Virus record (IMG/VR): IMGVR_UViG_3300028602_000019
Span: 1-52,984 of that record
Strand: one strand, 5' to 3'
DNA length: 52,984 nucleotides
Source of the DNA: a virus
In this document: positions 1 through 52,984 of the stretch, in pieces
Numbering within the stretch: position 1 is the first letter of the stretch
Layout: each line of letters starts with the position of its first letter
Program-made: the position numbers and the translations under genes
The notes under the pieces: model-generated
Databases searched by the model: none
Told to the model about the DNA's origin: nothing
Seen by the model: only the letters and a program-made list of their open reading frames with translations

Positions 1-127
1 TCCTCTGAAGTCGGAAGCATATCTTAAGTACAGTATAGATAAAGGAAAGCGTAGGATATGCTATGTGGAATATGTGAAGATAGAGAGAGTGTAGATTAGA
101 TATGATGAGGATAGTAGGGTGTGTAGA
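1..127. repeat. Left inverted terminal repeat (ITR)
   Basis: 1-127 is the exact reverse complement of 52858-52984, checked base by base. The first mismatch is 128 vs 52857. Confidence 0.95.
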
Positions 128-796: not shown

Positions 797-1729
797 TTAA
801 GTAAATCCTGCAATAGTACAATCTAAACGATTGATATACTTATGAATAAGATGCTTGGAATCACAATGTATACTGAATCCTATATATGATTGAAGCGATT
901 GCATAGAATGAGAAGTTATAGGAACATGATGATGAATATTATATATAATAAAATTGATAGATTTAATAAGAGAATGCTTTATTCTTTTTCTAAGTCTTGT
1001 ATAATCATGCCTGAATACAAATCCTAAAAAATCTATTCCTCTAGATTCTACAGGAAATATCTGATAATTTTTCTTGAGTTTCAATTTGAGATTATTAGTA
1101 ATGTATATATTTATGAAGTTCAAATATCTATGAAGTTGCAATTTATTTGAATATAATATAACAATATCATCCATATATCTATAATAATATTTTATACCAA
1201 GATTCTCTTTACAATAATGGTCAAAATAAGATAAATAGAAATTACTGAAATATTGACTTGCATAATTACCTATTGGAATACCTGTTGAAGGAGCAGTGTA
1301 TATTATGATGTGTATAAGATTTAATGTCTGTTTACATTTTATCTTCTTACATATTAATGAGTACAATATATCTCTATCTACATTTTCGAAATAATGATGC
1401 ACATCCAATTTAAGGCAATACTTAGTTCCGATTGGGTCTTGCTTGAGTGTTTGCTTTACAGATTTGGCAGCCTTATGTAATCCTTTATCTGGAATCGCTG
1501 CATATGTAGTTTCTATAAATGTAGATTTCAATATTGGCCCAACAACTTGTAAAAGGCAATGCTGAATTATTCTATCTGGAAAAGTACGAGTGTAGTTCAG
1601 TGTGCGATATTTACCGCTTTCATAAATCTGCCTGGTATTATATTTGGAGGGTACATAAGATTCTTCCGATAATATCTGTTCTATTGCATCAATATATGGT
1701 GCAGGATTGGATAAAATAAGAACAGACAA
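797..1729 (-). CDS. DGR-type reverse transcriptase
   Basis: Carries the YMDD catalytic box (YRYMDDIVIL) and the DGR-typical IGNYASQYFSNFYL motif. The open frame continues upstream to 1837 without a canonical start (see findings). Confidence 0.85.
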   Translation of the reverse strand: MSVLILSNPAPYIDAIEQILSEESYVPSKYNTRQIYESGKYRTLNYTRTFPDRIIQHCLLQVVGPILKSTFIETTYAAIPDKGLHKAAKSVKQTLKQDPIGTKYCLKLDVHHYFENVDRDILYSLICKKIKCKQTLNLIHIIIYTAPSTGIPIGNYASQYFSNFYLSYFDHYCKENLGIKYYYRYMDDIVILYSNKLQLHRYLNFINIYITNNLKLKLKKNYQIFPVESRGIDFLGFVFRHDYTRLRKRIKHSLIKSINFIIYNIHHHVPITSHSMQSLQSYIGFSIHCDSKHLIHKYINRLDCTIAGFT

Positions 1730-1964
1730 ATAATCCTTATGTCCTTTACAGGCATTATGTATTGCTGATATAATGTTATCTCTGGATTTTATTGTATCAT
1801 ATAAATTTCCTTTTCTTCTTATGCTTATCCCTTCTATCTATCTATTATTTCGTTTTCCCCTAGAGTACCAACGAAAGTGGGGTTTAATTTACTAGATGTT
1901 TTGTCAAGAGGCATGGTTATGTGGTCTTGTTGTCCATGTGGACTGTAAGTATTTTGTAGATATT

Positions 1965-2100
1965 CGAGCACCAATGTTAGTGTTAGTATTAGTAGCAGAA
2001 TTGCTCACACGCAAATAGAAGAACCCCGCAAAAGTACCGCCGTTCCAATAACCTCCAAAATAAGGGAAATCAGAAGCACCGACAAAGCCATTGTTGCTGT
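1965..2100 (-). repeat. DGR template repeat (TR)
   Basis: Aligns to 2163-2298 at a constant offset of 198, with 15 mismatches. Ten fall where the TR coding strand has A. The TR lies between the target gene and the RT. Confidence 0.85.
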
Positions 2101-2121
2101 GCCACATCACCGTTAAAAGAC

Positions 2122-2136
2122 GCAAAGTACCTTTGC
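2122..2136 (-). promoter_or_regulatory. Short hairpin just 3' of the VR-bearing gene
   Basis: GCAAAG-TAC-CTTTGC is a perfect 6-bp stem with a 3-nt loop, 5 nt after the stop of ORF 2141..3307. Confidence 0.4.
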
Positions 2137-2140
2137 TTTA

Positions 2141-3307
2141 TTACTCACCCCCATAAGATAGCCGAGCACCAATCGCACTGCTAGTATTAGTAGCAGAATT
2201 GCTCACACGCAAATAGAAGAACCCCGCAAAAGCACCGCCGCTCCAATAACCCCCAAAATAAGGGAAACCAGAAGCAACGACAACGCCATAGTCGCAATAG
2301 TATTTTGTTTCATTTCCGCTTGCTGTAGAGGTAGGCAGGAATCCTGATTGTTCTCCTCCTAATGAAGCAGAGAAATATCCATCTACACCAGCAGATAACC
2401 CCGTATCTATTGTGGCATATCCTGTGCCTGTCGTGTTGGCAATATCTCCTACTTGTATGTTATAATTAGCATCTGTTTTCAATCCGCCAATCAACTCGAA
2501 AATGTTTCCCCACATGTCTTCTTGCCACAAGAACGAGACCCTCGATGTGCTGGACGATGTGTTTCCGTACATACCATACTCATTTACCAAAGTGTTATTA
2601 GCACCTGTGTACTGTTTTACGCTTCCTCCAACATACCCGTTGCCTAAATATGCTTGAGAATCGGTATTTTTGAATAATAATACATATAACATCTGAATAA
2701 ATGTTAAATTGTTGTACAGAGTTATATCATATCCACTTCCTGCACCTGATTGAGCGTATGTAATGAAATCAGTTAAACTACCGTAAACAGTAGGGCTTAC
2801 TCCTGTCCTCGAAGTCAATACGTTTGAGGCATTATATGTTTTATAGCATCCACTTTCGAAGTAATTCCTAACCACCCCATTCCTTGAGAAGTGCCAATCG
2901 GAATATCCTTCTCCTTTGACATTTGAAAATTTGATACTAACGACTGTTCCTGCTTTACTCATTTTCGTATATATTTTTTCAAAATGGGTGAACTTGTTAG
3001 CTGTTGTCGATACAGTATTTCCATCTATGTCTTTAGTCAAGTCTGTTTTCATTAAACGAGTAACAGTTGAACCAACACGCATTACAGGATATATCAAATC
3101 CCATAATGGACATCCGACCCAATCACCAGCAGTAAATGTGCCTATATTGGACATTGGTGAATAGCCTGCACAATCGTCTGTATATGTACATCTTGCATAT
3201 GGGTCTGCAACAGATTCATCTATCTCTACCCCCGCTATCCAATTGGTTGGAAAGGGGTGTGGCCCATGTGATTTAGACATCATCAATCTTCTGAACATCG
3301 AACTCAT
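2141..3307 (-). CDS. DGR target protein: tail-fibre/receptor-binding protein with C-type-lectin/FGE-like C-terminus
   Basis: Contains the VR at its C-terminus. The motif WQEDMWGNIFELIGG resembles the GNVWEW signature of DGR variable proteins. Its ATGA start overlaps the stop of the tail-fibre gene. Confidence 0.75.
   Translation of the reverse strand: MSSMFRRLMMSKSHGPHPFPTNWIAGVEIDESVADPYARCTYTDDCAGYSPMSNIGTFTAGDWVGCPLWDLIYPVMRVGSTVTRLMKTDLTKDIDGNTVSTTANKFTHFEKIYTKMSKAGTVVSIKFSNVKGEGYSDWHFSRNGVVRNYFESGCYKTYNASNVLTSRTGVSPTVYGSLTDFITYAQSGAGSGYDITLYNNLTFIQMLYVLLFKNTDSQAYLGNGYVGGSVKQYTGANNTLVNEYGMYGNTSSSTSRVSFLWQEDMWGNIFELIGGLKTDANYNIQVGDIANTTGTGYATIDTGLSAGVDGYFSASLGGEQSGFLPTSTASGNETKYYCDYGVVVASGFPYFGGYWSGGAFAGFFYLRVSNSATNTSSAIGARLSYGGE
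2163..2298 (-). repeat. DGR variable repeat (VR) in the 3' end of the target gene
   Basis: Partner of the TR. It encodes the last ~45 residues (YCDYGVVVASGFPYFGGYWSGGAFAGFFYLRVSNSATNTSSAIGAR) of ORF 2141..3307. Confidence 0.85.
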
Positions 3308-6300
3308 TGAGCTTCACCCCATACTCCAATCCCATTCAAGAAGGACACGACATACGATTTGCTTACTGCAAAGGTAGGGTCTGCATCTATCCACGTGCAC
3401 CCTGACGAATCAGTGAATGTGAACGATGTGCTAGAAGTGAAATAAATGATTATCTCCGAATCGGAAACAGGTACAGTATTGATGGTCAATGATGTCAATC
3501 CGCCTGATACAGTATATTTATATATGTTATTGGCAACAGGTGTCAGAGTAACAGATGCAGTACTGCTATCAGTGTTAATGGTCTGAACAGTTACCTTTGT
3601 TATTAATGCAGTATCTACGTATGACTTAGGAGTTGCACTATTTGCATCAGGTGGAGTTGAGTTAACTCTTATATCACCTGCACCAGCACGAAACACTAGT
3701 GTCCCACTTCCTCCAGTTGCACTGCTTGAAGCATCGTATGACCCTTGACTGCCATCAGTATTCTTTGCATAGATTTTAACAAATGTTGATGTGCCACTCA
3801 CTTTATCTACTTTAGTTGTATCGCTAGGATGAACATGGTCTCCGCGTGCAAAGGATGCGGTTTCTGTACCAGCACCTGCCGTTCCATCCATCGCAGGAGT
3901 AGTGGCAGATGCTTTAGCATGACCATAATCTGTTGCAGAAGATACACCATATGTTGTTGCAGATGAAGCATGAGATGTTGGTGCTTTACTTGTAAATTGT
4001 GTCTGAATAGCACTTGTAACTCCTGCAACATATCCTAACTCTGTGCTAGTAACTGCTGAAACATCTACTTTACCAGACGCATCAGAGACTAGTGCTTTAG
4101 ATGTTGTCAAGTTAGAAGATACAATTGTTGTTGCTGCTCCTGTTATAACATTCTGCTTATTAGACAATGCTGTATACACTGCACCGCTTGTAATTGCAAC
4201 GGTATTTCCACTTACAGGGGATGTATCTAACGTCTGCCATATTCCTGTTCCGCTTCCATCACTACTCCAATACTGTCCACTCGTACCAACTGTAGTTGGA
4301 GGATATACAGTTATCTCTGATATATTTGTGATGTGTCCTGAAGCGTTATAAGTTATAGCAGGTATAGCAGTTGTGGACCCTATTGAACCTGCTGTGATAG
4401 ATGCAAGATGATTCAGAGTTGTTCCTGAAAATGATAAACCTGTTCCTGCCGATATTATGTCTTGTTTTCCTGTAATCACTTGACTTAATACATATCCTTG
4501 ATGAGATGACAGGGCTTTCCCATCTACATATGCTGAATCTGTCAATGCATCTATCACGAGGCAATGACCATAATTAGAAGTTGTTCCTAATCCGTATGTA
4601 GAATCTGATGAAGCATGAGATGTTGATGCCTTACCTGTCAATGCAGATTCCACGTTAGAATTAATGGTATGCTGAGATAAGATTGTTCCTCCATCGTTTT
4701 GATAGACTTGGTCAGTAGAAATGAATCCTCCAGACCTGCTGAAATACACATACTCATTGGAAGCTATATCTGTTTCCATATTGATTGTCTGAGTATCTGC
4801 TCCATCTTTTACGATACGGAACGCCAGATTGAATTGAGTTCCTGCTAGAGCATCATACTGCGTATATAAAGCATAAGGTACAGTCACAGTTGCAGTATAC
4901 ACCGTACTCGCTGCCGTGAATATGACCGCTTGACCTAATGGTATTTCTGCTATGATTGTGTCTACTGAATCATATATTGCATGTAATACAGGTCTCCATG
5001 TGTATTTAGTTCCGATATTAAGATTTGCAAGTCTGGTATGATATCTCATAACGGTTTGAGTGTCATAAGAGCTAGCTAATGGCGCAGTATAGAACAAATC
5101 TTTTTGTATTGCAGTAGTTCCTACGAGTGATATGCTTGCGCTAACATCTGATGTCGGTTTGGTCGCACCCATCGTAGTAGATGTATCCATATAGAAATAT
5201 TGAATTACTCCTGATGGCATATCTCCAAGCTGTGCTGAAAAAATATCTTCAGTTTCACCTCTCTCAATAGTTATATTTGCTCCTGCTACTGAGTATTTTT
5301 GCTTTCCATCCAATGCATTTTGCAAATCAGTCTGACTGGCTAATGTTCCTGTGATGGCACCCCATGCAACTGCTGAGGCTGTAGGATTGGCAAGTACCCA
5401 TGAATATGTTCCTCCCGATTCCCTGCAAGCATAGAAATAGAATTGAGTATATACGTCTGTTGCACCTATATATTGATATACTTTATCTACATAATCAATG
5501 GATGCTAGAGGTAATTCTAAAACCGCATTGAGTTGCGCTTCAGATTCAATATTATCTAGTTTTGATTTCAATATATCTGTAAAATCATTTGCAGATAATT
5601 CTTTACCTGAAACTTTATCTACTTTACCATCTAATGAAGTATATAATCCTCCACTTGTAACTGGATTCAAACTAGATTCTACGGGTGTAGAATCGAATGT
5701 TAATTCAGATTGTTTTCCATTCCAGGATGATATTTGTACATCTGTTACAACTCTGTGTGTGGAATCATCGGATAAATCAGACAGTGTGGTAGGAACATAT
5801 ATATTTACATTCTTTCCTATTATTTCTATTGGAGTTGAATTTTTAGAGATGGACTCTATTACATTTACTTGTGCACCTGTAGCGATATTCGTAAGCTTTA
5901 TTTCAAAATCATCTGTGAAATCATTAGTAGATAAGCCTTTTCCATCCACTTTATCAACTTTAGATTGGTTTGCAGTATATACTCCTCCAGAAGTTACAGG
6001 GTTGATAGATTCTGAAATCGGAGACGAATCAAAGGTCAATGCGTCTTGTTTACTATTCCAGTCACTTTTTTCTGAATCTGAAACAACTCTATGTGTAGAA
6101 TCTTCAGATAATTCAGATAAAGCAGTAGGAACCAACACATCTACACTTTTATCTGTATTTACGAGAGCTACACCATTCTTTTTTACAACTTCTATGATAT
6201 TAACTTCTGCATTTGCTTCAATCCCATCTACTTTATTTTTGTAATCATTGGTAAAATCATTAGTGGATAATTCTTTACCTGCTTCTTTATCTACTTTGAG

Positions 6301-7317
6301 TATCAAAGAATCATGAATCCCATTGGACGTTACAGGATTTGTACTATCTTCTGTCGGAGTGTTGTCAAACGTTAATTGGTCTTGTTTATTATCCCAGTCA
6401 GATATCTGAGTGTCAGTCACTAATCTATGGGTGGAATCGTCAGATAAATCTGATAAAGCAGTAGGAACATATATATTTATGTTTTTGTTTATAATTTCAA
6501 TAGGTGTTCCATTTTCAGAGATGGATTCTATGATATTGACTTGAGCACCTGTTTGTATTGTTGCTAATTTGTTAAAGTCTACTTGAGAATATATAGTCAT
6601 CCAAGAAGTAATCTGAGAAGGGTCTGCACCAACACACAGATAAATATTCTTCTCATAAGCTCCTGCCGTTATAATTGCAAAATCAGGAGGAGATGCTGTT
6701 GTTAAAGTGGTTAGCAAACTAGGGTCTGTTATGAAGAATTCGTCTACTATGACTCCTCCTGGAATGAATCTGGAAGGAATCAAAGAATCTACTAGATACG
6801 GCATATTCAATATGACTTGTTGTGTAGCTCCTGAAAGAGTAGTGAATGTTAGAACAGGGCGGTCTTCTTCTGCATCTTCTGAATATTCTGTGCTGATATG
6901 TGCTTTGTTTGTTAATTGTAAGACTTCATTAGTATAAGTAGAATCATCCGATGGGGATATTACAGGAGAATAGCTAATATAAATCTGACTTTGTTGCGAT
7001 AACTCTATTGTAGTATAATCTTCAGATGTGAATTGTATATTAAATTTAAGATTGGTTTTTGAAGCATTAGCAGTTAATTCATAGGGTATCTGGAATATGT
7101 CACCTGTGATAAGATATCTGGGTTTGTATTTACCTAATATATCTGATTCGAGATAACAATCGAATAATATCTCTTTCGAATACGTATCATACATCTCTGG
7201 AAAATCAAAAGATAGAATAGTGGAATTATTGTCTCCTGCAACAGATTCTGCTTGTTGACCTGTTAACCTAAGTTTTCTAGTATCAGAACCTTCATAAATA
7301 TATTTCACTGTTTGCAT
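3304..7317 (-). CDS. Large tail fibre protein (1337 aa)
   Basis: Supported by its size, its position at the distal end of the tail module, three ~113-aa tandem repeats with the fibre motif GK(E/G)LS(T/A)NDFT, and SHASS..TYG......YGH repeats. Confidence 0.7.
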   Translation of the reverse strand: MQTVKYIYEGSDTRKLRLTGQQAESVAGDNNSTILSFDFPEMYDTYSKEILFDCYLESDILGKYKPRYLITGDIFQIPYELTANASKTNLKFNIQFTSEDYTTIELSQQSQIYISYSPVISPSDDSTYTNEVLQLTNKAHISTEYSEDAEEDRPVLTFTTLSGATQQVILNMPYLVDSLIPSRFIPGGVIVDEFFITDPSLLTTLTTASPPDFAIITAGAYEKNIYLCVGADPSQITSWMTIYSQVDFNKLATIQTGAQVNIIESISENGTPIEIINKNINIYVPTALSDLSDDSTHRLVTDTQISDWDNKQDQLTFDNTPTEDSTNPVTSNGIHDSLILKVDKEAGKELSTNDFTNDYKNKVDGIEANAEVNIIEVVKKNGVALVNTDKSVDVLVPTALSELSEDSTHRVVSDSEKSDWNSKQDALTFDSSPISESINPVTSGGVYTANQSKVDKVDGKGLSTNDFTDDFEIKLTNIATGAQVNVIESISKNSTPIEIIGKNVNIYVPTTLSDLSDDSTHRVVTDVQISSWNGKQSELTFDSTPVESSLNPVTSGGLYTSLDGKVDKVSGKELSANDFTDILKSKLDNIESEAQLNAVLELPLASIDYVDKVYQYIGATDVYTQFYFYACRESGGTYSWVLANPTASAVAWGAITGTLASQTDLQNALDGKQKYSVAGANITIERGETEDIFSAQLGDMPSGVIQYFYMDTSTTMGATKPTSDVSASISLVGTTAIQKDLFYTAPLASSYDTQTVMRYHTRLANLNIGTKYTWRPVLHAIYDSVDTIIAEIPLGQAVIFTAASTVYTATVTVPYALYTQYDALAGTQFNLAFRIVKDGADTQTINMETDIASNEYVYFSRSGGFISTDQVYQNDGGTILSQHTINSNVESALTGKASTSHASSDSTYGLGTTSNYGHCLVIDALTDSAYVDGKALSSHQGYVLSQVITGKQDIISAGTGLSFSGTTLNHLASITAGSIGSTTAIPAITYNASGHITNISEITVYPPTTVGTSGQYWSSDGSGTGIWQTLDTSPVSGNTVAITSGAVYTALSNKQNVITGAATTIVSSNLTTSKALVSDASGKVDVSAVTSTELGYVAGVTSAIQTQFTSKAPTSHASSATTYGVSSATDYGHAKASATTPAMDGTAGAGTETASFARGDHVHPSDTTKVDKVSGTSTFVKIYAKNTDGSQGSYDASSSATGGSGTLVFRAGAGDIRVNSTPPDANSATPKSYVDTALITKVTVQTINTDSSTASVTLTPVANNIYKYTVSGGLTSLTINTVPVSDSEIIIYFTSSTSFTFTDSSGCTWIDADPTFAVSKSYVVSFLNGIGVWGEAQ
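5530..6552 (-). repeat. Three tandem ~340-nt (~113-aa) coding repeats inside the tail fibre gene
   Basis: Residues ~256-595 repeat GAQVN(I/V)IE...VPT(A/T)LS(D/E)LS(D/E)DSTHR.V.D...S.W..KQ..LTFD..P..S.NPVTS.G......KVDK..GK.LS.NDFT. Similarity is also visible at the nucleotide level. Confidence 0.85.
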
Positions 7318-24091: not shown

Positions 24092-25381
24092 TTACTTCAA
24101 GTGGACTATCTTTCCGAGACCTTTGAACATTCCCTTGTACTGAACCTCACCAAACTGGTTCATATCACAAAGTCTTGTGTATCTCTGGGTAATCAACGGG
24201 TTGTCGCTCATGAGAACATTAGGTGCTCTGAGAACTCCCATGAAGAGGTTCTCTGAATCTGCAAAGTACATTCTTGAGATACCATCGTCTGCGTGTCCGC
24301 CTGTGGTCGGTCCATATCCTTTTCCGACTTCTCTGTCGGGAATGATAATCATGTTCTGGTATTTTGCAACCTGGAAACCAGTCTCGCGACCTTCAAGAGT
24401 CTTGACACCGTTCTGGTCGAACTGAGCCGAAACCTGACCCTGATATCTCTGTTGAGGCTGGAGAATCATCTGCAATTTGGTCATTGTATCTGGACCAGTG
24501 ATGATTACCTTACCCTTCGAGGAATAGTTATCCCAGTATGGGTTAAGCGTATTGATTGTGGTATCAATCATAGACAGTGTAAGCTGTCTGAGCGTAGCAT
24601 CACCAGTCGTAGTTCCTGCCGTGTAGTTCGCATCGACATAACAGTTTATGTTATTGTCTGCAACTGCTCCAGAAGCTGCTGGATTCCTATATTTAGCCAG
24701 AGGCTGTGCCGAATCGGTGGATGGGAGTTGTGTGTACATCTTCCACGGAACGTTGTATCCTGCTGGAACGTACTGTCCTTCAGTGTAGTTGGAGATAATC
24801 CTATCAAGTGATTCTGCTCCCACATATTCTGTAGCTCCGTAAGGGTTGGCTCCAGTAGGTGTCGGGTCTTCTACACGTCTGAGCAAGTCGTTGTTGATTG
24901 TCCAGAGGAATGTATCGGCTTCGTTCTTGACCTGTGTTTCCCAGAGCATGACATCGTCAATCTGCTTGGAACCAATCTCTACCATACCGAGATTCATTGC
25001 GAATCTGTGTGCGAAAAGCTTATAAGGCTGTTCGAACTGGAGATAGTTTCCGACAACAGGGTTTGGTACACCTGCTCCTCTCGCGAGACCTGATGTCTGT
25101 GATTTGGTCATAGACATGCTCTCTTGGAATCTGTATGCTGTTCTGTACGGCTGTTGACCGATTGCAGTAAGTGCATATGCTTTGTTATATGCGAGGTTCT
25201 GAACGTAAGGTCCATAAACCGCATTCATTGCACCATCTGTATTAATTCCGATAGTTCCTTCTCCTTTCAATCTCTCAACGGACCTCATATCGTTTCCCCA
25301 TGAGAAATCAAATACTTCTTCCATTGAGGAATAAGTAGGGAAAACCCCGTCGGATGTAAATCCTGTCATAATCGAATTCAT
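24092..25381 (-). CDS. Major capsid protein (429 aa, presumed HK97 fold)
   Basis: Canonical order portal, protease/scaffold, capsid. ATGA start/stop coupling, locally higher GC and a terminator hairpin downstream. The fold is not verifiable by eye. Confidence 0.6.
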   Translation of the reverse strand: MNSIMTGFTSDGVFPTYSSMEEVFDFSWGNDMRSVERLKGEGTIGINTDGAMNAVYGPYVQNLAYNKAYALTAIGQQPYRTAYRFQESMSMTKSQTSGLARGAGVPNPVVGNYLQFEQPYKLFAHRFAMNLGMVEIGSKQIDDVMLWETQVKNEADTFLWTINNDLLRRVEDPTPTGANPYGATEYVGAESLDRIISNYTEGQYVPAGYNVPWKMYTQLPSTDSAQPLAKYRNPAASGAVADNNINCYVDANYTAGTTTGDATLRQLTLSMIDTTINTLNPYWDNYSSKGKVIITGPDTMTKLQMILQPQQRYQGQVSAQFDQNGVKTLEGRETGFQVAKYQNMIIIPDREVGKGYGPTTGGHADDGISRMYFADSENLFMGVLRAPNVLMSDNPLITQRYTRLCDMNQFGEVQYKGMFKGLGKIVHLK

Positions 25382-27912
25382 TTTTCTTCACCAACTAATT
25401 TCTTTAAAAAGTTTTCAGGACTCGTACCGAAATACTGAAGGTAATCCTCTGTGCTAGGCTTGTCTGTGACATGCCCATCAAATCCTTTTACCTTCTCAGA
25501 CGGATAAATCAATGAGACATTACTCTTATTGGTTTGCATTGCAGGAGTCAATGTTGCAAGGCTGATGACCTCGCTGTCTGCGTAATGCACGTCTACTCCC
25601 TTTTGTTTCAACTCTGCCTGTCTTGCAAACACCATCGCTTTGAAATCGACAACAGTCTTGCAACCTTTGGTCGCAACAATGTCTGGTTTCTCTTCGATAG
25701 GTTCTACAACGGGCACATCTTCTTTGGAAGTTTCTTTCACTTCCTCTTCGGACTTGTTTTCAACAACGGGAGCTTCAATAGATTCAGGTTCAACTACTGT
25801 ATCTGTAACAGTCTCAGTATCTCCTTTCTTCTTTTCTTTATTCTCAGGCTCTTCCTTCTTTTTTAAATTAGGAATGCCGTCTTTCTTTTCAGAAGTTGCT
25901 TCTTCATTATCAGTAGACTCGGACTTGTCTTCCCCTTCGGCTGGTTTTTCTTCCTGCTCTGGTTTCTCTCCATCATCCGACTTGCCATCAGATTCTTCTT
26001 CGGGGTCGTCTTCGTCTGTAGACTGGACTTCCTCTTCAGTATCTTCGGATTCCTTTTCAGAACCTTCTGTTGGCTTTTCGAATTGAGGAGGTACGTCACC
26101 CTTGGCATCTGTCTCTTCCTTCGCAACACCATTCATGGGTTGTTCGATACTCTCTTCAGAACCTTCTGCGGTTTCTCCGAGAATTGCATCTGCTATACTT
26201 TCATCATGACCAGTGTTTTCGGCACTGGATGCTTCAAGCTTCATTATCCTGATATTTATCTGGTCAAGTAATGCTAACATACTTGCCATAGTGGATGCAA
26301 TCATTGGTATGGAAGATTGGGTGTCAGACATAGCTGGAAGACCTTTGTCCTTCTCTACAGTTTGAGGAGCATCTGTAAGGGTTGCTTCTTCTGATTTTAT
26401 CTCAGGAGTTGCTACCTCTTCTTTACAACCTGCTTGTTTCTCAACCATCTTGCTCTCTCCTTTCATCTTGCGCTGTTTTAGTTCTAAAAACGCAAGTATA
26501 AACTCCTTCCCAGATGTCGTTGTAAGAAATTGTTGAACCTCATCATCAGAATATCTGGATAATATGGTTGCAACCTTTTTCACAATGTTCTGTAAAGTAG
26601 GAGTCGGGGTGTTTTGAATTGCATTGACATCAATATTCTCATCAGTGAGGTCTAGCTTGTCAGTTGGGTTTGTGGTATTGTTGATGTGATGTACGCGAAA
26701 TATATCGTGACATCCCCAAACACCAGCATGCTCATGCTGACCAGCAGGGCATTCGCCCTTTTCCACCTCATCATAGGATTCTTTCATGCCTTCTGCAATC
26801 GAGGATGCTACGGCAGGGTCTATTCTTCTTAAAGCTTCCAAGATACTGCCGATGTGCTTTTCCTCATCATGAATTATCTCGTTGAAAATAGCAAACACTT
26901 CTGTCTGCACCTCTTCAGTGAGATAATTGCCGAGTCTAATTGACTCCATGACTGTGTTATAACCGTGAATTGCTTCTTTTTCATCTACGATAAGATGCAC
27001 TAAAGAATCTAACAATTCATCGGAGTTGTTTATAGGTTTAGGACAGATGAGGATTGAATCCCCATCATCCCCTTTGGACACTTCGAATGCCCTGTAATCA
27101 GGATACATAGAAGAAATCGTAGATTTGTCTTCTTCATCCAGTTTACCGTTGATTAAAATCATACCTTCGTTGTATGATGTCTCCAGACCCTTTTCACCCA
27201 GGGTTTGCTTGAGTTGCATGTATTTCTTTTTTATCGGACACACTTCATCATGAAGTTCGACCACGTATGAATCATCGCCTTTGGCGTGTTCATTCACCTC
27301 TACTGGATATGTACTTGTATTCCTAGGGCTTCTGACATTTGACAACTCGAACCAGTGTTCGGGAATCAATCTGAAATAACAATGATTAGAATCACATTCC
27401 CTTATTGATTTAGAGAACGAACCTATTGAATATTTGGTCTTACCTTCGAGGAATTCCTTCCATGCCATGTCATACATCGGCTTATCTCTGAAGTAATTCA
27501 TGCATACTAAGATGCATGGTTTGCCTGTCCTCTCATCTATTCCTTTGAATACCTTCCAAGCAGTACCTACTACTTTATTGGAATGTGAATTGATTAGCAA
27601 TCCCCCAGAATCTACAAAGAATTGACCAGCGTCTACATATGCATCTACATCTGCCAGGTCATTATCTAAATCTACAATCTCAGTAGAAACATTGGCTAAC
27701 ACATAACGAGATGATTCACAATACTTAACCGACTCCCATGCGCATTCTCTGCAAAATTGTTCCATAGAGAAGCAATTTCCAATATCTGCATCTAGGTCAT
27801 CTTTGATTGAATCGAAAACCAGATTGTATTCTAATCTCCATTTTTCCTGGTCTTCAGGATGTAAAGAGTTACGTACGCCAGTAGGCAATTCCAAACAAGT
27901 AGTGTAACTCAT
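25378..27912 (-). CDS. Prohead protease/scaffold polyprotein with ferritin-like insert and acidic low-complexity region (844 aa)
   Basis: Lies between portal and capsid. The N-terminal LLINSHSNKVVGTAWKV resembles the prohead protease His region. Residues ~298-365 carry two E..H helices, and residues ~560-720 are an Asp/Glu/Lys-rich scaffold-like stretch. Confidence 0.55.
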   Translation of the reverse strand: MSYTTCLELPTGVRNSLHPEDQEKWRLEYNLVFDSIKDDLDADIGNCFSMEQFCRECAWESVKYCESSRYVLANVSTEIVDLDNDLADVDAYVDAGQFFVDSGGLLINSHSNKVVGTAWKVFKGIDERTGKPCILVCMNYFRDKPMYDMAWKEFLEGKTKYSIGSFSKSIRECDSNHCYFRLIPEHWFELSNVRSPRNTSTYPVEVNEHAKGDDSYVVELHDEVCPIKKKYMQLKQTLGEKGLETSYNEGMILINGKLDEEDKSTISSMYPDYRAFEVSKGDDGDSILICPKPINNSDELLDSLVHLIVDEKEAIHGYNTVMESIRLGNYLTEEVQTEVFAIFNEIIHDEEKHIGSILEALRRIDPAVASSIAEGMKESYDEVEKGECPAGQHEHAGVWGCHDIFRVHHINNTTNPTDKLDLTDENIDVNAIQNTPTPTLQNIVKKVATILSRYSDDEVQQFLTTTSGKEFILAFLELKQRKMKGESKMVEKQAGCKEEVATPEIKSEEATLTDAPQTVEKDKGLPAMSDTQSSIPMIASTMASMLALLDQINIRIMKLEASSAENTGHDESIADAILGETAEGSEESIEQPMNGVAKEETDAKGDVPPQFEKPTEGSEKESEDTEEEVQSTDEDDPEEESDGKSDDGEKPEQEEKPAEGEDKSESTDNEEATSEKKDGIPNLKKKEEPENKEKKKGDTETVTDTVVEPESIEAPVVENKSEEEVKETSKEDVPVVEPIEEKPDIVATKGCKTVVDFKAMVFARQAELKQKGVDVHYADSEVISLATLTPAMQTNKSNVSLIYPSEKVKGFDGHVTDKPSTEDYLQYFGTSPENFLKKLVGEEK

Positions 27913-31397: not shown

Positions 31398-32399
31398 TCA
31401 ATCATCACATATACCTTTTTCGTTCAATGTAGCTACGCATTCTCCATTGGGCAAAAATGGACATTTCTCCAATTTTATAACCCTTTTTCCAGCTTTACCT
31501 CTTCTTATCAGAAGTCTTACAGCGGAGGCATGACCTAATATGTTTCCTCCAACTGCCTCGGCAGGGTCTACGAACATCATCGCGTCTGGTCTCATGGACA
31601 TCTGATTGGTCATAAGGACCACTGCATCATTGTTCTTGGCGAATCTCAACAAATCTGCTAAATATCCATTGAGCAACTGCTGTCTTTCTGCCAAAGCTCC
31701 CCTACCTATATATTCACTTCTGAAATGGCTGATTACGGAATCTATAATCAACAATTTGACAGGATGCTCTCTGGCGAATTCTCTGATTTTATCCATCACT
31801 ACTATCTGATACGATGAACTTGTTGCATCTATGTGCTTTATCTTTGAGAGAGTATCGTTTACATCATATCCCCGTTTAAGGGCTATTTCCGCTACCCTAG
31901 AAGCCCTGAACGTGTTCTCGGTATCTACAACTACCACATACCCGTCCAAACCGCCTTCTAGGAGGGTTCTAGTAGCCATTACGGCTGCTGTGAGACAGCA
32001 TTGTGTCTTACCTATGCCATTAAGCGAATGAATCTCTGTCAATAGTCTGGTAGAATACCCTCCTCCGATTAGATTGTTGAATTCCTCAGAACCTGTTGTG
32101 AGTTTTGGAGATTCTTTTTCTAAAATCAGCATTTCCTCACAGTTCTCAAGATTTCCAATCTGAGCCAAAGTACGTGCATTGGAGATAATTTTCTCAGCTG
32201 CCGATTTAGCGAATCCTGTTCTATCTATGAAATCTCCTATGGGTGCAGATGCTATTGCGAGCATTGTCAAATAACCTGCATCAATGAGCTTATTAGCTCC
32301 TGCATCTCCTATTCCTTTCAATTCCTTTAACTGAGAAGCTATAAGCTCTCTATCTATGTTTGACTTAACACCTGTTATATTTTGCTCATCTTCTTGCAT
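31398..32399 (-). CDS. radA: RadA/Rad51-type recombinase
   Basis: Carries an HhH motif (LKELKGIGDAGANKLIDAGY), Walker A (NGIGKTQ) and Walker B (LLIIDSV). The ATG at 32399 has a GGAGGT ribosome-binding site. The upstream extension to 32543 in the ORF track overlaps the preceding gene. Confidence 0.85.
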   Translation of the reverse strand: MQEDEQNITGVKSNIDRELIASQLKELKGIGDAGANKLIDAGYLTMLAIASAPIGDFIDRTGFAKSAAEKIISNARTLAQIGNLENCEEMLILEKESPKLTTGSEEFNNLIGGGYSTRLLTEIHSLNGIGKTQCCLTAAVMATRTLLEGGLDGYVVVVDTENTFRASRVAEIALKRGYDVNDTLSKIKHIDATSSSYQIVVMDKIREFAREHPVKLLIIDSVISHFRSEYIGRGALAERQQLLNGYLADLLRFAKNNDAVVLMTNQMSMRPDAMMFVDPAEAVGGNILGHASAVRLLIRRGKAGKRVIKLEKCPFLPNGECVATLNEKGICDD

Positions 32400-32832
32400 T
32401 TGTACCTCCAAACTTACCACCCTTTGAATCTTCAGGCAGAATCCTATCGAATCTGATTGTATCGCTATCATATGTATCATTGCAAAGATAGCGAATCCTA
32501 TAATACCCGAACGCTTTTCCGTATATATGTGTTTTGGCATCACAGATTTTTATCACATAATATGAATTGGATTGTGAATTGTGCTGTACTCTTACATCTA
32601 AGTCGCATCTGTTTATCTTGTTGCGTAATGTAATCCACGCACGGGGTGACATATTCCCAAATCCAGCACGCTCTTCCAATGCTACTCTTTTACACTCCGA
32701 TACCGACTCGCCTGTTGAATACACTATCTTCGTGGATAAGCTGTCAGATATCAGTGCATAATATCTTTTCCCCCAATCTAACTTTTCACATGGAGGCAAG
32801 GATACTTCTATACACTTGTTCGATTCATTCAT
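32386..32832 (-). CDS. Hypothetical protein (148 aa)
   Basis: Co-directional ORF between the helicase gene and radA. No motif recognised. Confidence 0.45.
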   Translation of the reverse strand: MNESNKCIEVSLPPCEKLDWGKRYYALISDSLSTKIVYSTGESVSECKRVALEERAGFGNMSPRAWITLRNKINRCDLDVRVQHNSQSNSYYVIKICDAKTHIYGKAFGYYRIRYLCNDTYDSDTIRFDRILPEDSKGGKFGGTNARR

Positions 32833-40391: not shown

Positions 40392-40443
40392 TTGTGGGGA
40401 TGCTACAATCTGTGCATGATAGGAATCTATCCTTTCCCCACAA
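40392..40443 (+). promoter_or_regulatory. Nested hairpin in the leader of the first peptidase gene
   Basis: TTGTGGGGA (40392-40400) pairs with TCCCCACAA (40435-40443). An inner GATAG-GAAT-CTATC hairpin lies at 40418-40431. No T-tract follows. Confidence 0.4.
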
Positions 40444-40460
40444 CCTCTCAAGGTGTATAT

Positions 40461-41063
40461 ATGAATTTTATGTTCAAAGTAGGTTTCAAAAAATACTATA
40501 TACGTATGGTATTTCCAGAAAAATCAGTATATTATAATAAATATGCTCCTCGTTCTTATAATGATTTGAGATTCTTTTCTACAATAGATGACACAGTCAT
40601 ACAAGATATGGCTCATCAGTTGAATTATCAGATGGAAGGGAGAAGCGACAATTATAAAGCCAAGGCACTTCTCAACTTTTTCCATCAGAATTTCACATAT
40701 ATCTCAGACGAAGAACAATTTCAGATAGAAGATGTTTGGGAACTTCCTGCACACATGATTAAAACCACGAAAGGCGATTGCGATGGGTTTGCGCTTGCAT
40801 ACACGGCATTAGCGCATAATATGGGATTAGATGTCGTAACTGTAGTATATTCCTCTCACATGGCTGTTGCAGTGCGCTTAAACGGAAAGATTGGATGGGA
40901 TTCAATCATGCATGATGATAAAGAATATTTTATTGTAGACCCAACTTCTAGGAAATCAAAGATTGGAATTGCAACATGTGATAAATCTATAATTTATATC
41001 ACTCTCCCATCTGCACCAAGTGAAAGATTCAAATTAAAGCTCACACATTTCCCTACGTATTAA
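40461..41063 (+). CDS. Transglutaminase-like cysteine peptidase (paralog 1)
   Basis: Candidate Cys-His-Asp triad: KGDCDGFA ... SSHMAV ... VDPT. The ATG at 40461 follows an AAGGTG ribosome-binding site; the ORF track TTG at 40392 lies inside the hairpin. Confidence 0.6.
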   Translation: MNFMFKVGFKKYYIRMVFPEKSVYYNKYAPRSYNDLRFFSTIDDTVIQDMAHQLNYQMEGRSDNYKAKALLNFFHQNFTYISDEEQFQIEDVWELPAHMIKTTKGDCDGFALAYTALAHNMGLDVVTVVYSSHMAVAVRLNGKIGWDSIMHDDKEYFIVDPTSRKSKIGIATCDKSIIYITLPSAPSERFKLKLTHFPTY

Positions 41064-41087: not shown

Positions 41088-41774
41088 ATGGATGCGATAG
41101 ATGTATTTGGAATATTATTCATTTCAATATTGGTTATATTCTTAGGTTATACGCTTGGAGTAATTGTATTGAAGATGACCAACCCTAAAAAACATTTTAT
41201 TTGGATATATCACGGAATACCTCATATGATGAGTGTTCCTGATTTGACTAAGAGTCAATATTATGATTTGTTTCCAGATAAATCTATGAATTGGTTGGGA
41301 TGTTATCCTACGATAGATGATGTTGTACTTAAAGACATTGCAGATAACATATCTGCTAAATGTAGAAATAAATCTGATTCATACAAATATGGATTTGTAC
41401 TGGCTTTTGTTCAGCAGAATATAAAGTATGTTTCTGATATTAAACATTATGGAGATGAAGAAATCTGGTGTTTACCTATTCAAACCTTAAAAGAAAGGAC
41501 AGGAGATTGTGAAGACACGGCAATTCTGTATTGTAGTATAATTCATCTTATGGATTTAGATACATGCTTAGCGATAGTTCCTGGTCATGCAGTTAGTGGA
41601 GCAAAGAATGGATTGGGTGCTAGTTTCGAATGCTCAGGTAGGAAATATTATTTTGCAGAGACTACATCTGTGATTCCGATTCCTGGATTTTATACAGCTT
41701 CTAAAAATGTAAGATATTGTGCAACCCCTATATTGCCTGTAAAGGAGTTTTTAGATTCTTTGCATAAAAGATAA
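41088..41774 (+). CDS. Transglutaminase-like cysteine peptidase with N-terminal membrane anchor (paralog 2)
   Basis: TGDCEDTA ... PGHAVS motifs and the N-terminal hydrophobic helix ILFISILVIFLGYTLGVIVL. Confidence 0.6.
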   Translation: MDAIDVFGILFISILVIFLGYTLGVIVLKMTNPKKHFIWIYHGIPHMMSVPDLTKSQYYDLFPDKSMNWLGCYPTIDDVVLKDIADNISAKCRNKSDSYKYGFVLAFVQQNIKYVSDIKHYGDEEIWCLPIQTLKERTGDCEDTAILYCSIIHLMDLDTCLAIVPGHAVSGAKNGLGASFECSGRKYYFAETTSVIPIPGFYTASKNVRYCATPILPVKEFLDSLHKR

Positions 41775-52548: not shown

Positions 52549-52818
52549 TCACATCCCTCTCTCCACTCTCTCCAACACCTCTCTCATCTCCCTTTCCACC
52601 TCTCTCCCCATCTCCCTATACGTCTCTCTATACCACATCTTAACAATCTCCACTGCACTCTCCCTTCTAATCTTCACTCCCTCATACTCCTCTCTAATCC
52701 CGTCTCCGTATATCAACACCGCACCCTCTCTATTCTCCCATACCTCTACTCTTCCCTCTCTGCAATGCACTATACGCAACACTTCTCCTTTCTCCGAGTA
52801 ATACCATCCTTTCTTCAT
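52549..52818 (-). CDS. Terminal-family protein encoded by an almost cytosine-free mRNA
   Basis: The ORF track start is 52836. The internal ATG at 52818 gives MKKGWYYSEKGE, mirroring the left-end gene. The protein is dominated by E, R, G, V, Y, M, K and W. Confidence 0.5.
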   Translation of the reverse strand: MKKGWYYSEKGEVLRIVHCREGRVEVWENREGAVLIYGDGIREEYEGVKIRRESAVEIVKMWYRETYREMGREVEREMREVLERVERGM

Positions 52819-52857
52819 CTCATACCCTCTATACATATATCTTCTTCATACTATATA

Positions 52858-52984
52858 TCTACACACCCTACTATCCTCATCATATCTAATCTACACTCTC
52901 TCTATCTTCACATATTCCACATAGCATATCCTACGCTTTCCTTTATCTATACTGTACTTAAGATATGCTTCCGACTTCAGAGGA
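52858..52984. repeat. Right inverted terminal repeat (ITR)
   Basis: Exact reverse complement of 1-127. Confidence 0.95.

What the first reader, a model, noticed from the sequence alone, without database searches (positions are those of the whole stretch)
797..3307. Diversity-generating retroelement targeting a tail receptor-binding protein of an archaeal virus
Seen: the RT ORF carries YMDD and IGNYASQYFSNFYL. A 136-nt TR (1965-2100) aligns with the VR (2163-2298) at a constant offset of 198. By my count there are 15 mismatches, and 10 lie where the TR coding strand has adenine. In the central 95 nt, all 4 mismatches are at adenines. At protein level, TR-encoded Asn (AAY) codons correspond to D, Y, S, S and A in the VR. 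The VR forms the C-terminus of ORF 2141..3307, which is ATGA-coupled to the 1337-aa tail fibre gene. Established: adenine-specific mutagenic retrohoming into C-type-lectin-fold tail fibre tips is the DGR mechanism of Bordetella phage BPP-1. To my recollection, DGRs in archaeal viruses have so far been reported only rarely. Additional points: I see no Avd-like accessory ORF between target and RT. The five non-adenine mismatches cluster at both edges of the repeat. At the 3' edge this may reflect an IMH versus IMH* difference (VR GGTGCTCGGCTATCT vs TR GGTGCTCGAATATCT).
Basis: partly seen in the sequence, partly recalled or inferred. Interest (0 to 1): 0.8.

Follow-up and report, generated by a model that had tools for sequence, protein, structure and literature searches.

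The report
Mutagenic retroelement in an archaeal virus tail
This is a real diversity-generating retroelement that rewrites the tip of a tail protein in a new tailed virus of archaea; such elements are known, but here the element's own master template has lost 17 of the 40 adenines in its mutable stretch.

Summary
TR 1965-2100 and VR 2163-2298 sit at offset 198 with 15 mismatches, 10 of them at coding-strand adenines (P = 3e-5).

The DGR interpretation holds:
- The RT matches Bordetella phage Brt far better than group II or retron RTs.
- The modelled target (pLDDT 91) resembles the DGR variable proteins TaqVP, Mtd and TvpA.
- Across ten VR alleles from related contigs, 39 of 40 template adenines vary, against 12 of 78 other positions (P = 2e-19).

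An archaeal host is well supported but not directly shown. RadA passes the curated archaeal model. Portal and capsid proteins hit only archaeal viruses.

This is not a first. ANMV-1 (2015) and the GenBank Methanomassiliicoccales virus vir215 carry comparable cassettes.

Three new points:
- Contigs with the identical RT carry a more adenine-rich TR. The window's TR differs from it at 17 positions, all adenines, confined to 2004-2086. Fifteen of the 17 replacement bases match the window's own VR, so VR-like sequence has overwritten the template.
- The RT probably starts at ATA.
- Six of ten related target contigs lack TR-RT next to the target.

Verdict: new member of a known kind, moderate interest.

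The parts
797..1837 (-). DGR reverse transcriptase gene. The mechanical ORF is 797-1729 (TTG start). The homologous reading frame runs from 1837, right after an in-frame TAG. The probable start is an ATA codon at 1837-1835, 1828-1826 or 1822-1820.
   Evidence: Family and relatives:
- Pfam RVT_1 E 5e-15; phrog_1423 E 3e-96.
- PDB 8ub7 E 1.5e-34.
- BPP-1 Brt 31% identity, E 3e-42, aligned from Brt residue 3.
- vir215 RT 38% identity, E 5e-67.
- YMDD and IGNYASQ motifs present.

Start codon:
- The N-terminal 36 codons contain no ATG, GTG or TTG.
- They are conserved in L026 (85% nt identity), which has TTA where the window has TTG.
- L004 has ATG at the position of the first ATA.
1838..1957 (-). 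Non-coding spacer between TR/IMH* and the RT start. It is presumed to be part of the template RNA.
   Evidence: 100% identical in the window, L001, L002 and L003. No ORF. No significant RNA fold (z 0.40). No Rfam family.
1958..1972 (-). IMH*-like 3' end of the TR (GGTGCTCGAATATCT).
   Evidence: Differs from the VR counterpart by AA vs GG. The same sequence is present in the window, L001, L002, L003 and L026.
1965..2100 (-). Template repeat (TR), adenine-depleted allele: 23 adenines remain in the mutable stretch, against 40 in the allele of L002/L003.
2004..2086 (-). Tract inside the TR where 17 of 26 ancestral adenines are replaced by the bases found in the VR.
   Evidence: - All 17 differences from the L002/L003 TR fall on adenines (P 6e-10).
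- Fifteen of the 17 replacement bases equal the window VR, against 2-6 of 17 (4 of the 13 readable in L003) for unrelated VR alleles.
- None of the 12 adenines 3' of the tract changed (Fisher P 2e-4).
2122..2136 (.). Short inverted repeat (GCAAAG-GTA-CTTTGC) five bases after the target stop codon. It is either a DGR target hairpin/cruciform or a terminator.
   Evidence: Found by folding (z only -1.3) and by the terminator scan on both strands. The stem is kept with loop GCA in L019, L020 and L026. The hairpin is absent in L018 and L021-L023.
2156..2170 (-). IMH-like 3' end of the VR (GGTGCTCGGCTATCT).
   Evidence: GGTGCTCGGCTATC is present in all ten VR-bearing loci.
2163..2298 (-). Variable repeat (VR), encoding the last ~45 residues of the target protein.
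   Evidence: The protein alignment shows a fixed scaffold (YYCD.G.V.AS.FP.FGG.W...AG.F.L.V..SAT.T...IGARLSYGGE) with variable positions between the fixed ones.
2141..3307 (-). DGR target gene: a 388-aa tail protein with a C-type-lectin/FGE-like fold.
   Evidence: - phrog_5302 tail protein, E 2e-35.
- Best annotated relative is the vir335 tail protein, 33.5% identity.
- Profile hit to TaqVP 5vf4, E 3.7e-9.
- Model pLDDT 91.
- Foldseek hits to TaqVP, Mtd and TvpA.
3304..7317 (-). 1337-aa putative tail fibre, translationally coupled (ATGA) to the target gene.
   Evidence: ORF list. Weak tail-fibre PHROG hits on an internal repeat: phrog_32680 E 1e-7 and phrog_18608 E 3e-11.

Best explanation
The locus is a diversity-generating retroelement of the accessory-less 'target - TR - RT' layout. 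It is carried by a previously undescribed tailed virus whose host is very probably an archaeon, likely an anaerobic lineage near Thermoplasmatota or the methanogens.

Inferred mechanism, by homology to the Bordetella phage BPP-1 system:
1. An RNA spanning the TR and the spacer is reverse-transcribed by the RT.
2. Template adenines are copied unfaithfully.
3. The cDNA replaces the VR at the 3' end of the 388-aa tail protein gene.
4. This re-randomises solvent-exposed residues of a C-type-lectin-fold receptor-binding tip, while AAY codons prevent stop codons.

What is shown:
- all sequence parts of the element;
- the RT's affinity to Brt;
- the fold of the target;
- adenine-specific variation among ten natural VR alleles.

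What is inferred: the biochemical steps and the receptor-binding role.

The copy in this window is in a derived state. A central tract of its TR (2004-2086) has been overwritten by a VR-like allele, removing 17 of 40 mutable adenines. This cuts the theoretical protein repertoire from about 1e21 to about 3e12.

The tract stops short of the twelve 3'-proximal adenines. The most likely cause is therefore homologous recombination or gene conversion between the two repeats, which lie 198 bp apart, rather than a canonical IMH-primed homing event into the TR.

The window VR then differs from this eroded TR, inside the tract, only at four remaining adenines. This suggests the element stayed active after the erosion.
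For: DGR identity:
- TR/VR counts.
- RT affinity.
- Target fold.
- 14 AAY codons in the adenine-rich TR, with adenines almost only at codon positions 1 and 2.
- 39 of 40 adenine positions vary against 12 of 78 non-adenine positions across ten alleles.
- VR alleles from JGI contigs fit their own TR allele, L026.
- The window and L001 are 99.94% identical over 3064 nt and differ only at one VR codon.
- Accessory-less TR-RT cassettes make up 29% of surveyed DGRs (PMC5758913).

Archaeal host:
- RadA scores 322 bits against a cut-off of 259 for NF003301.
- Named RadA homologues are all archaeal.
- RadA, portal and capsid tblastn hits are exclusively archaeal viruses.
- The nearest annotated target and portal are in Methanomassiliicoccales virus vir335.

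TR erosion.
Against: - No reads were mapped, so within-sample hypervariability is not shown directly.
- No formal RT phylogeny was built.
- No Avd or other accessory gene was found. The mechanism may therefore differ in detail from BPP-1.
- The RT lacks a canonical start codon upstream of its conserved N-terminus.
- The hairpin is short, AT-rich and statistically unremarkable.
- There is no direct host link. Both scans of GTDB genomes found nothing, no CRISPR-spacer search was made, and there are no tRNAs.
- Several details do not fit one simple history: non-A mismatches at 1976, 1980, 2079 and 2086, and the GGT codon in L001, which its own TAT template cannot produce.
Confidence: 0.85

Rival explanations
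1. A decaying or already inactive DGR. The repeats and the RT are relics, and the VR differences are frozen history rather than ongoing diversification.
For: - The TR has lost 17 of 40 mutable adenines.
- The RT has no ATG, GTG or TTG before its conserved N-terminus.
- Six of ten related target-bearing contigs lack TR-RT next to the target. L019 and L020 keep only a TR stub.
- L001 has a VR codon (GGT) that its own TR (TAT) cannot generate.
Against: - The RT frame is intact over 346 codons, with its catalytic motifs.
- The RT is identical in four contigs carrying four different VRs.
- The ATA-initiated N-terminus is conserved without stops at 85% nt identity.
- Inside the eroded tract, the VR differs from the TR only at remaining adenines.
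- The window and L001 differ only in the VR across 3 kb.
Confidence: 0.12
2. The eroded TR arose by mutagenic retrohoming into the TR itself (self-targeting), not by DNA recombination with the VR.
For: - All 17 changes are at adenines.
- Their rate inside the tract (65%) is like that of a VR.
- From my recollection of Doulatov et al. 2004 (not checked here): in BPP-1, replacing IMH* by IMH makes the TR itself variable.
Against: - None of the 12 adenines next to IMH* changed (Fisher P 2e-4). Canonical homing starts at that end.
- IMH* keeps its AA in every TR copy.
Confidence: 0.25
3. The virus infects a bacterium, and the archaeal-looking genes are horizontally acquired.
For: The large terminase and the primase resemble those of bacterial phages at 22-33% identity. 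The nearest annotated RTs are in gut crAss-like phages.
Against: - RadA is an archaeal/eukaryotic-type recombinase, here passing the curated archaeal model.
- Portal, capsid and RadA have no bacterial-phage hits at all.
Confidence: 0.07
4. An ordinary duplication of the 3' end of the tail gene, diverging by drift, with an unrelated RT nearby.
For: None beyond the bare existence of a direct repeat.
Against: Adenine specificity in the window (P 3e-5) and across alleles (P 2e-19). The RT is of DGR type. The downstream copy lies outside the target ORF (it overlaps only a 73-aa ORF listed mechanically) and is adenine-rich at codon positions 1 and 2.
Confidence: 0.01

Closest known systems
Caudoviricetes sp. 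vir215 (BK063676 / NC_092586), a Methanomassiliicoccales virus from a gut metagenome
   Same: - Same gene order: tail protein (phrog_5302), then VR, TR and RT (phrog_1423), with no avd between them.
- RT is 38% identical (E 5e-67).
- Its 122-nt TR/VR pair has 15 mismatches, all at adenines.
   Different: - A different virus. No nucleotide similarity was found to window 1-25000, the part that was searched.
- 37.7 kb, circular, with an integrase.
- GC-rich hairpin with a 4-nt loop.
- Canonical adenine-rich TR.
- TR and VR are not annotated in the record.
Bordetella phage BPP-1 DGR (mtd - avd - TR - brt)
   Same: - Adenine-specific TR-to-VR transfer into the C-terminal C-type-lectin fold of a tail receptor-binding protein.
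- RT is 31% identical to Brt.
- An IMH/IMH* pair is present.
- An inverted repeat lies after the VR.
   Different: - No Avd.
- The hairpin has a 6-bp AT-rich stem and a 3-nt loop, instead of an 8-bp GC-rich stem with a GRNA tetraloop (PMC3240598).
- The host domain differs.
- The RT appears to start at ATA.
ANMV-1, the putative ANME-archaeal virus with a DGR (Paul et al. 2015, PMC4372165)
   Same: An archaeal tailed virus whose DGR targets a C-type-lectin-fold protein next to tail fibre genes.
   Different: ANMV-1 has an Avd gene in its cassette (figure legend). It comes from a marine methane seep. Its sequence relationship to this window was not tested here.
TaqVP (PDB 5VF4), the Thermus aquaticus DGR variable protein
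   Same: Best structural match (E 1.3e-11, TM 0.49) and best profile match (E 3.7e-9) to the target, in three collinear segments that include the VR.
   Different: 13% identity. It is a cellular protein, not a viral tail protein.

Membership tests
Diversity-generating retroelement (DGR) | Reverse transcriptase of the DGR clade | tested here: met
   Brt E 3e-42. 8ub7 E 1.5e-34 against about 1e-14 for group II and retron RTs. phrog_1423 E 3e-96. The IGxxxSQ motif is shared with Brt in the alignment. All NCBIfam group II, retron and DRT models fall far below their cut-offs. No phylogenetic tree was built.
Diversity-generating retroelement (DGR) | TR/VR repeat pair whose differences fall at TR adenines | tested here: met
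   10 of 15 in the window (P 3e-5). Against the adenine-rich TR allele, 25 of 27 for the window VR and 18-26 per allele for the others.
Diversity-generating retroelement (DGR) | VR at the 3' end of a protein-coding target; TR outside the target ORF | tested here: met
   The VR encodes the last ~45 residues of ORF 2141-3307. The TR lies outside that ORF; only a 73-aa ORF listed mechanically overlaps it.
Diversity-generating retroelement (DGR) | Natural hypervariability confined to adenine-templated positions | tested here: met
   Ten alleles: 39 of 40 adenine positions vary against 12 of 78 non-adenine positions, Fisher P 2e-19. These are contig consensus sequences, not read pileups.
Diversity-generating retroelement (DGR) | Adenines concentrated in AAY codons, so that no stop codons arise | tested here: met
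   14 AAY codons in the adenine-rich TR and 6 in the window TR. Adenines by codon position 1/2/3 are 21/15/3.
Diversity-generating retroelement (DGR) | IMH at the VR 3' end and a non-identical IMH* at the TR 3' end | tested here: met
   The GG (VR) versus AA (TR) difference is conserved in all 10 VRs and in all five TR-bearing sequences. Function is not testable here.
Diversity-generating retroelement (DGR) | Hairpin/cruciform downstream of the VR (7-10 bp GC-rich stem with a GRNA loop in phage DGRs) | tested here: inconclusive
   6-bp stem, 3 G-C pairs, loop GTA/GCA, 22 nt after the VR/TR homology ends. Trinucleotide loops occur in nanoarchaeal DGRs (PMC4372165). The hairpin is missing in four RT-less relatives.
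Diversity-generating retroelement (DGR) | Accessory protein Avd (present in most DGRs, absent in architecture A) | tested here: not met
   No Pfam Avd hit in 29 small window ORFs or in the two neighbouring ORFs of vir215 and vir335. Avd is not a defining feature: 29% of DGRs lack accessory genes (PMC5758913).
Diversity-generating retroelement (DGR) | Target with a C-type-lectin (or Ig) fold displaying the variable residues | tested here: met
   Model pLDDT 91. Foldseek hits to TaqVP, Mtd and TvpA, then the FGE-like PvdO and EgtB.
Archaeal tailed virus (Caudoviricetes infecting archaea) | Tailed-virus hallmark genes (terminase, portal, HK97-like capsid, tail) | tested here: met
   TerL. TerS, portal and a weak MCP hit. 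Weak tape-measure hits and a head-tail adaptor hit.
Archaeal tailed virus (Caudoviricetes infecting archaea) | Genes or relatives that tie it to archaea | tested here: met
   RadA is above the NF003301 cut-off. Named RadA homologues are all archaeal. Portal, MCP and RadA hits are only archaeal viruses.
Archaeal tailed virus (Caudoviricetes infecting archaea) | Direct host link (CRISPR spacer, provirus, isolate) | tested here: inconclusive
   Two scans of GTDB genomes (RadA peptides; VR-end DNA pattern) found nothing. A CRISPR spacer search is not possible with these tools.

The most novel reading that the evidence does not exclude
The window captures a natural DGR whose template has been overwritten by one of its own variable alleles. 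This would show that the TR is not immune to the diversity it generates. It would also suggest a route by which DGRs either decay or shift their scaffold.

RT-bearing and RT-less variants of the same tail gene coexist in the same samples: L003 with L019, and L002 with L020. The RT-less ones still keep IMH and the hairpin. The element may therefore also act in trans between co-infecting archaeal viruses.
Probability: 0.3. Interest if true: 0.6.

Novelty: new member of a known kind. Interest (0 to 1): 0.45.

Why it matters
DGRs are the only known natural system of targeted protein hypermutation in prokaryotes.

This locus adds three things:
- A well-documented case in a new virus lineage, with population-level evidence of activity.
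- An accessory-less architecture shared with a Methanomassiliicoccales virus.
- A set of natural TR alleles (adenine-rich, intermediate, eroded) linked to an identical RT.

That allelic series is a ready-made natural experiment on how DGR templates evolve and fail. It bears on how long such elements stay functional, and on the design of engineered DGR mutagenesis systems.

Tried and rejected
- Megablast of window 1-25000 against GenBank phages: no hit.
- The large terminase and the primase gave only distant bacterial-phage hits. They are uninformative on the host.
- A GTDB genome scan with RadA peptides and another with the VR-end DNA pattern both found nothing.
- IMG/VR holds no close relative: RT identity is at most 50%, and the terminal repeat was not found.
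- A cluster look-up for P0002 (from an NCBI MAG contig) returned no name.
- RNA folding of TR plus spacer gave z = 0.40. Rfam gave no family in the window.
- Single-sequence phmmer of the target against the PDB found nothing useful. The profile search and the fold search were needed.
- Avd was searched among 29 small window ORFs plus one each from vir215 and vir335, and not found.
- Medvedeva et al. 2023, the source of vir215 and vir335, could not be read. Whether they describe these DGRs is unknown.
- Full-text searches for DGRs in methanogen or Methanomassiliicoccales viruses, and for TR gene conversion, returned nothing relevant beyond Paul et al. 2015.
- Assembly chimerism as the origin of the eroded TR was rejected. 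The TR contains base combinations found in neither the VR nor the adenine-rich TR, and it is identical in the independently assembled contig L001.
Full report
**Observation**

All genes of the locus are on the minus strand.
- A 136-140-nt direct repeat lies at 1958-2100 (downstream copy, outside the target ORF) and 2156-2298 (upstream copy, inside an ORF). The offset is a constant 198 and identity is 89%.
Only 27 of the 136 bases are adenine, so the chance P is 3e-5.
- The four central mismatches are all at adenines. The five non-adenine mismatches lie at the two edges.

**The reverse transcriptase**
- The ORF hits RVT_1 and the phage RT family phrog_1423 at E 3e-96.
- Its best solved-structure relative is a 328-aa RT (8ub7, E 1.5e-34). 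Retron and group II intron RTs score about 1e-14.
- A direct comparison with Brt of Bordetella phage BPP-1, fetched from NC_005357, gives 31% identity and E 3e-42 over almost the whole length.
- None of the curated NCBIfam models for group II, retron, Drt2 or Drt3 RTs comes near its cut-off.
- The nearest annotated relatives are the RTs of phages, among them crAss-like, Bacteroides, Faecalibacterium, Butyrivibrio and Bordetella phages, plus one Methanomassiliicoccales virus, vir215. CrAssphage LMMB among them has a published DGR (PMC7290462).
- I did not build a tree.

One correction concerns the RT start.
- The conserved N-terminus (…RRKGNLYDTIKSRDNIISAIHNACKGHKD…) lies upstream of the TTG that opens the mechanical ORF. 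It is in frame directly after a TAG, and it has no ATG, GTG or TTG.
- It aligns with residues 3 onward of Brt and of the vir215 RT.
- A 50%-identical RT in L004 has ATG exactly where the window has its first ATA.
- L026, 85% identical in DNA, keeps the ATA codons and the open frame but has TTA in place of the window's TTG.
- The RT therefore most probably starts at an ATA codon, at 1837, 1828 or 1822. This is an inference.

**The target**
- The 388-aa protein has no Pfam hit. It belongs to phrog_5302, 'tail protein' (E 2e-35).
- A profile of 32 homologues matches TaqVP, the Thermus aquaticus DGR variable protein, at E 3.7e-9 in three collinear segments including the VR. It matches Mtd weakly.
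- The AlphaFold model is confident: pLDDT 91.1, pTM 0.91.
- Its top Foldseek matches in the PDB are TaqVP (E 1.3e-11), five Mtd variants (5e-4 to 3e-3) and TvpA (1.5e-3). FGE-like proteins follow. The fold test is passed.
- In the alignment of close homologues, the last ~60 residues show an invariant scaffold interrupted by freely varying positions.

**Natural variation**

The RT protein is found, identical, on three short ENA contigs, L001-L003. Close homologues of the target (64-87% identity) lie on six further contigs, L018-L023. A JGI scan with the IMH*-spacer string gave L026 and L027.
- Aligning the ten VR alleles to the TR of L002/L003 shows 39 of 40 TR-adenine positions variable, against 12 of 78 non-adenine positions (Fisher P 2e-19).
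- Several of the recurrent non-adenine differences in the JGI alleles (T103, C112, G126, T130) are explained by their own TR allele, seen in L026.
- The window and L001 are 99.94% identical over 3064 nt and differ only in one VR codon.
It supports an active DGR in this lineage.

**The template is eroded in this window**
- L002 and L003 carry the same RT and a 100% identical spacer, but a much more adenine-rich TR.
- The window's TR, identical to that of L001, differs from it at 17 positions. All 17 are adenines in the L002/L003 allele (hypergeometric P 6e-10).
- At these positions the window's TR carries the same replacement base as the window's own VR in 15 of 17 cases. For the eight unrelated VR alleles the figure is 2-6 of 17, and 4 of the 13 positions readable in L003.
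- The changes are confined to 2004-2086, where 17 of 26 adenines are replaced. None of the 12 adenines between this tract and IMH* is changed (Fisher P 2e-4).
- The direction follows from adenine specificity. No known process would turn 17 assorted bases into adenine.
- A canonical homing event starts at the IMH end, so the untouched 3' adenines argue for DNA-level recombination or gene conversion with a VR allele rather than self-homing. This is an inference, and I give self-homing about one chance in four.
- Inside the tract, the present VR differs from the eroded TR only at four remaining adenines (2035, 2043, 2054, 2070). This is what a later round of mutagenic homing from the eroded template would give.
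The mismatch at 1980 matches the L026 TR allele. Those at 1976 and 2099 remain unexplained, as does the GGT codon of L001 opposite a TAT template.
- The consequence is a fall from 14 to 6 AAY codons. The theoretical repertoire drops from about 1e21 to about 3e12 protein variants.

**Other cis elements and accessory genes**
- IMH (…CGGCTATCT) and IMH* (…CGAATATCT) differ by GG/AA in every copy seen. A GG/AA difference (TGGGGT versus TGGAAT) was also reported for nanoarchaeal DGRs (PMC4372165).
- Five bases after the stop codon there is a 6-bp inverted repeat with a 3-nt loop (2122-2136). It is also a terminator-like site and is not statistically remarkable. The BPP-1-type consensus is a 7-10-bp GC-rich stem with a GRNA tetraloop (PMC3240598). 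I leave this feature as inconclusive.
- No Avd-like gene was found between the parts or among 29 small window ORFs. Accessory-less TR-RT cassettes make up 29% of a curated DGR set (PMC5758913).

**The virus and its host**

The window encodes the following:
- TerL, ThyX, a Cas4-like nuclease, an SF2 helicase and two transglutaminase-like proteins;
- a P4/D5-type primase-helicase and RadA;
- a small terminase, a portal and a probable major capsid protein;
- proteins with weak tape-measure hits and one with a head-tail adaptor hit.

Evidence on the host:
- RadA exceeds the curated cut-off of the archaeal RadA model NF003301 (322 against 259 bits).
- Every named RadA homologue is archaeal. The closest named one is a Thermoplasmata MAG at 45% identity.
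- Among 50,697 phage records, RadA hits only haloarchaeal tailed viruses.
- The capsid protein hits only Methanomassiliicoccales and Methanofastidiosa viruses.
- The portal hits only Methanomassiliicoccales virus vir335 (E 1e-49) and haloarchaeal viruses.
- The target's best annotated relative is also in vir335.
- An archaeal host is therefore well supported, but no direct host link was obtained.

**Comparison with what is known**
- A DGR in an archaeal virus was first reported for ANMV-1 (PMC4372165).
- The GenBank Methanomassiliicoccales virus vir215 has the same order: tail protein (phrog_5302), VR, TR, RT (phrog_1423). I verified its 122-nt repeat pair: 15 mismatches, all at TR adenines. 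The record annotates the RT but not the repeats.
- I could not read the paper that released vir215.
- The finding is thus a new member of a known kind. I did not find the TR allelic series or the eroded template described in the searchable literature, but that search was limited.

**Presence/absence of the cassette**

Of ten related target-bearing contigs, four have TR-RT after the target. Two (L019, L020) keep the hairpin and about 20 nt of the TR 5' end, then continue into other genes. Four (L018, L021-L023) diverge right after the stop codon. RT-bearing and RT-less forms occur in the same samples: ERZ27247361 holds L003 and L019, and ERZ27249489 holds L002 and L020.

**Verdict**

Interest is moderate. 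The mechanism and target class are textbook DGR, and the archaeal-virus setting is rare but precedented. The eroded template with its natural allelic series is the part worth following up.

Noticed in passing
window 1-127 and 52858-52984: The two ends of the window are a perfect 127-nt inverted repeat. Position 1 is not a physical end: contig L001 runs 14 nt further (AGTGTTGCTTGCGG). In L002 the left end is joined, through 160 unrelated nt, to the inverted right-end sequence 52589-52857. In L026 the RT is directly followed by the repeat. The genome probably has longer terminal or internal inverted repeats whose inner borders differ between strains. The window is the unique part plus 127 nt of repeat at each end.
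   Followed up: partly
window 1820-1837 (minus strand): The RT appears to initiate at an ATA codon. An AGGG/GGGA motif lies 6-7 nt upstream of the third candidate. There is no ATG, GTG or TTG before the conserved N-terminus. The feature is conserved in L026.
   Followed up: partly
L018-L023 versus window 1700-2140: The TR-RT cassette is missing next to the target gene in six of ten related contigs. In two of them a short stub of the TR 5' end remains, which points to deletion. RT-bearing and RT-less forms coexist in the same samples.
   Followed up: partly
L016 (NC_092586, vir215) 5463-5584 and 5737-5858: The published Methanomassiliicoccales virus vir215 carries a complete DGR: 122-nt VR/TR with 15 of 15 mismatches at adenines, and a GC-rich hairpin after the VR. 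The repeats are not annotated in the record.
   Followed up: yes
window 31398-32543 (minus strand): A virus-encoded archaeal-type RadA recombinase with about 70 extra N-terminal residues. The nearest homologues (53-58% identity) lie on unnamed contigs, many of 30-70 kb, which may be related viruses.
   Followed up: partly
window 40392-41063 and 41088-41774 (plus strand): Two adjacent transglutaminase-like (Cys-protease-fold) proteins. They could be cell-wall or S-layer lytic enzymes of the virus.
   Followed up: no
window 3304-7317 (minus strand), residues ~250-580 of the 1337-aa protein: The putative tail fibre contains three tandem copies of a ~105-residue unit (…VNIIESISxNGTPIEIIxKNxNIYVPTxLSDLSDDSTHRxVTDxQISxW…). 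This unit is the only part of the protein that hits tail-fibre PHROGs.
   Followed up: no
window 25378-27912 (minus strand): An 844-aa protein between the portal and capsid genes has a weak match (E 4e-7) to the encapsulin EncB ferritin-like cargo family and no other hit.
   Followed up: no
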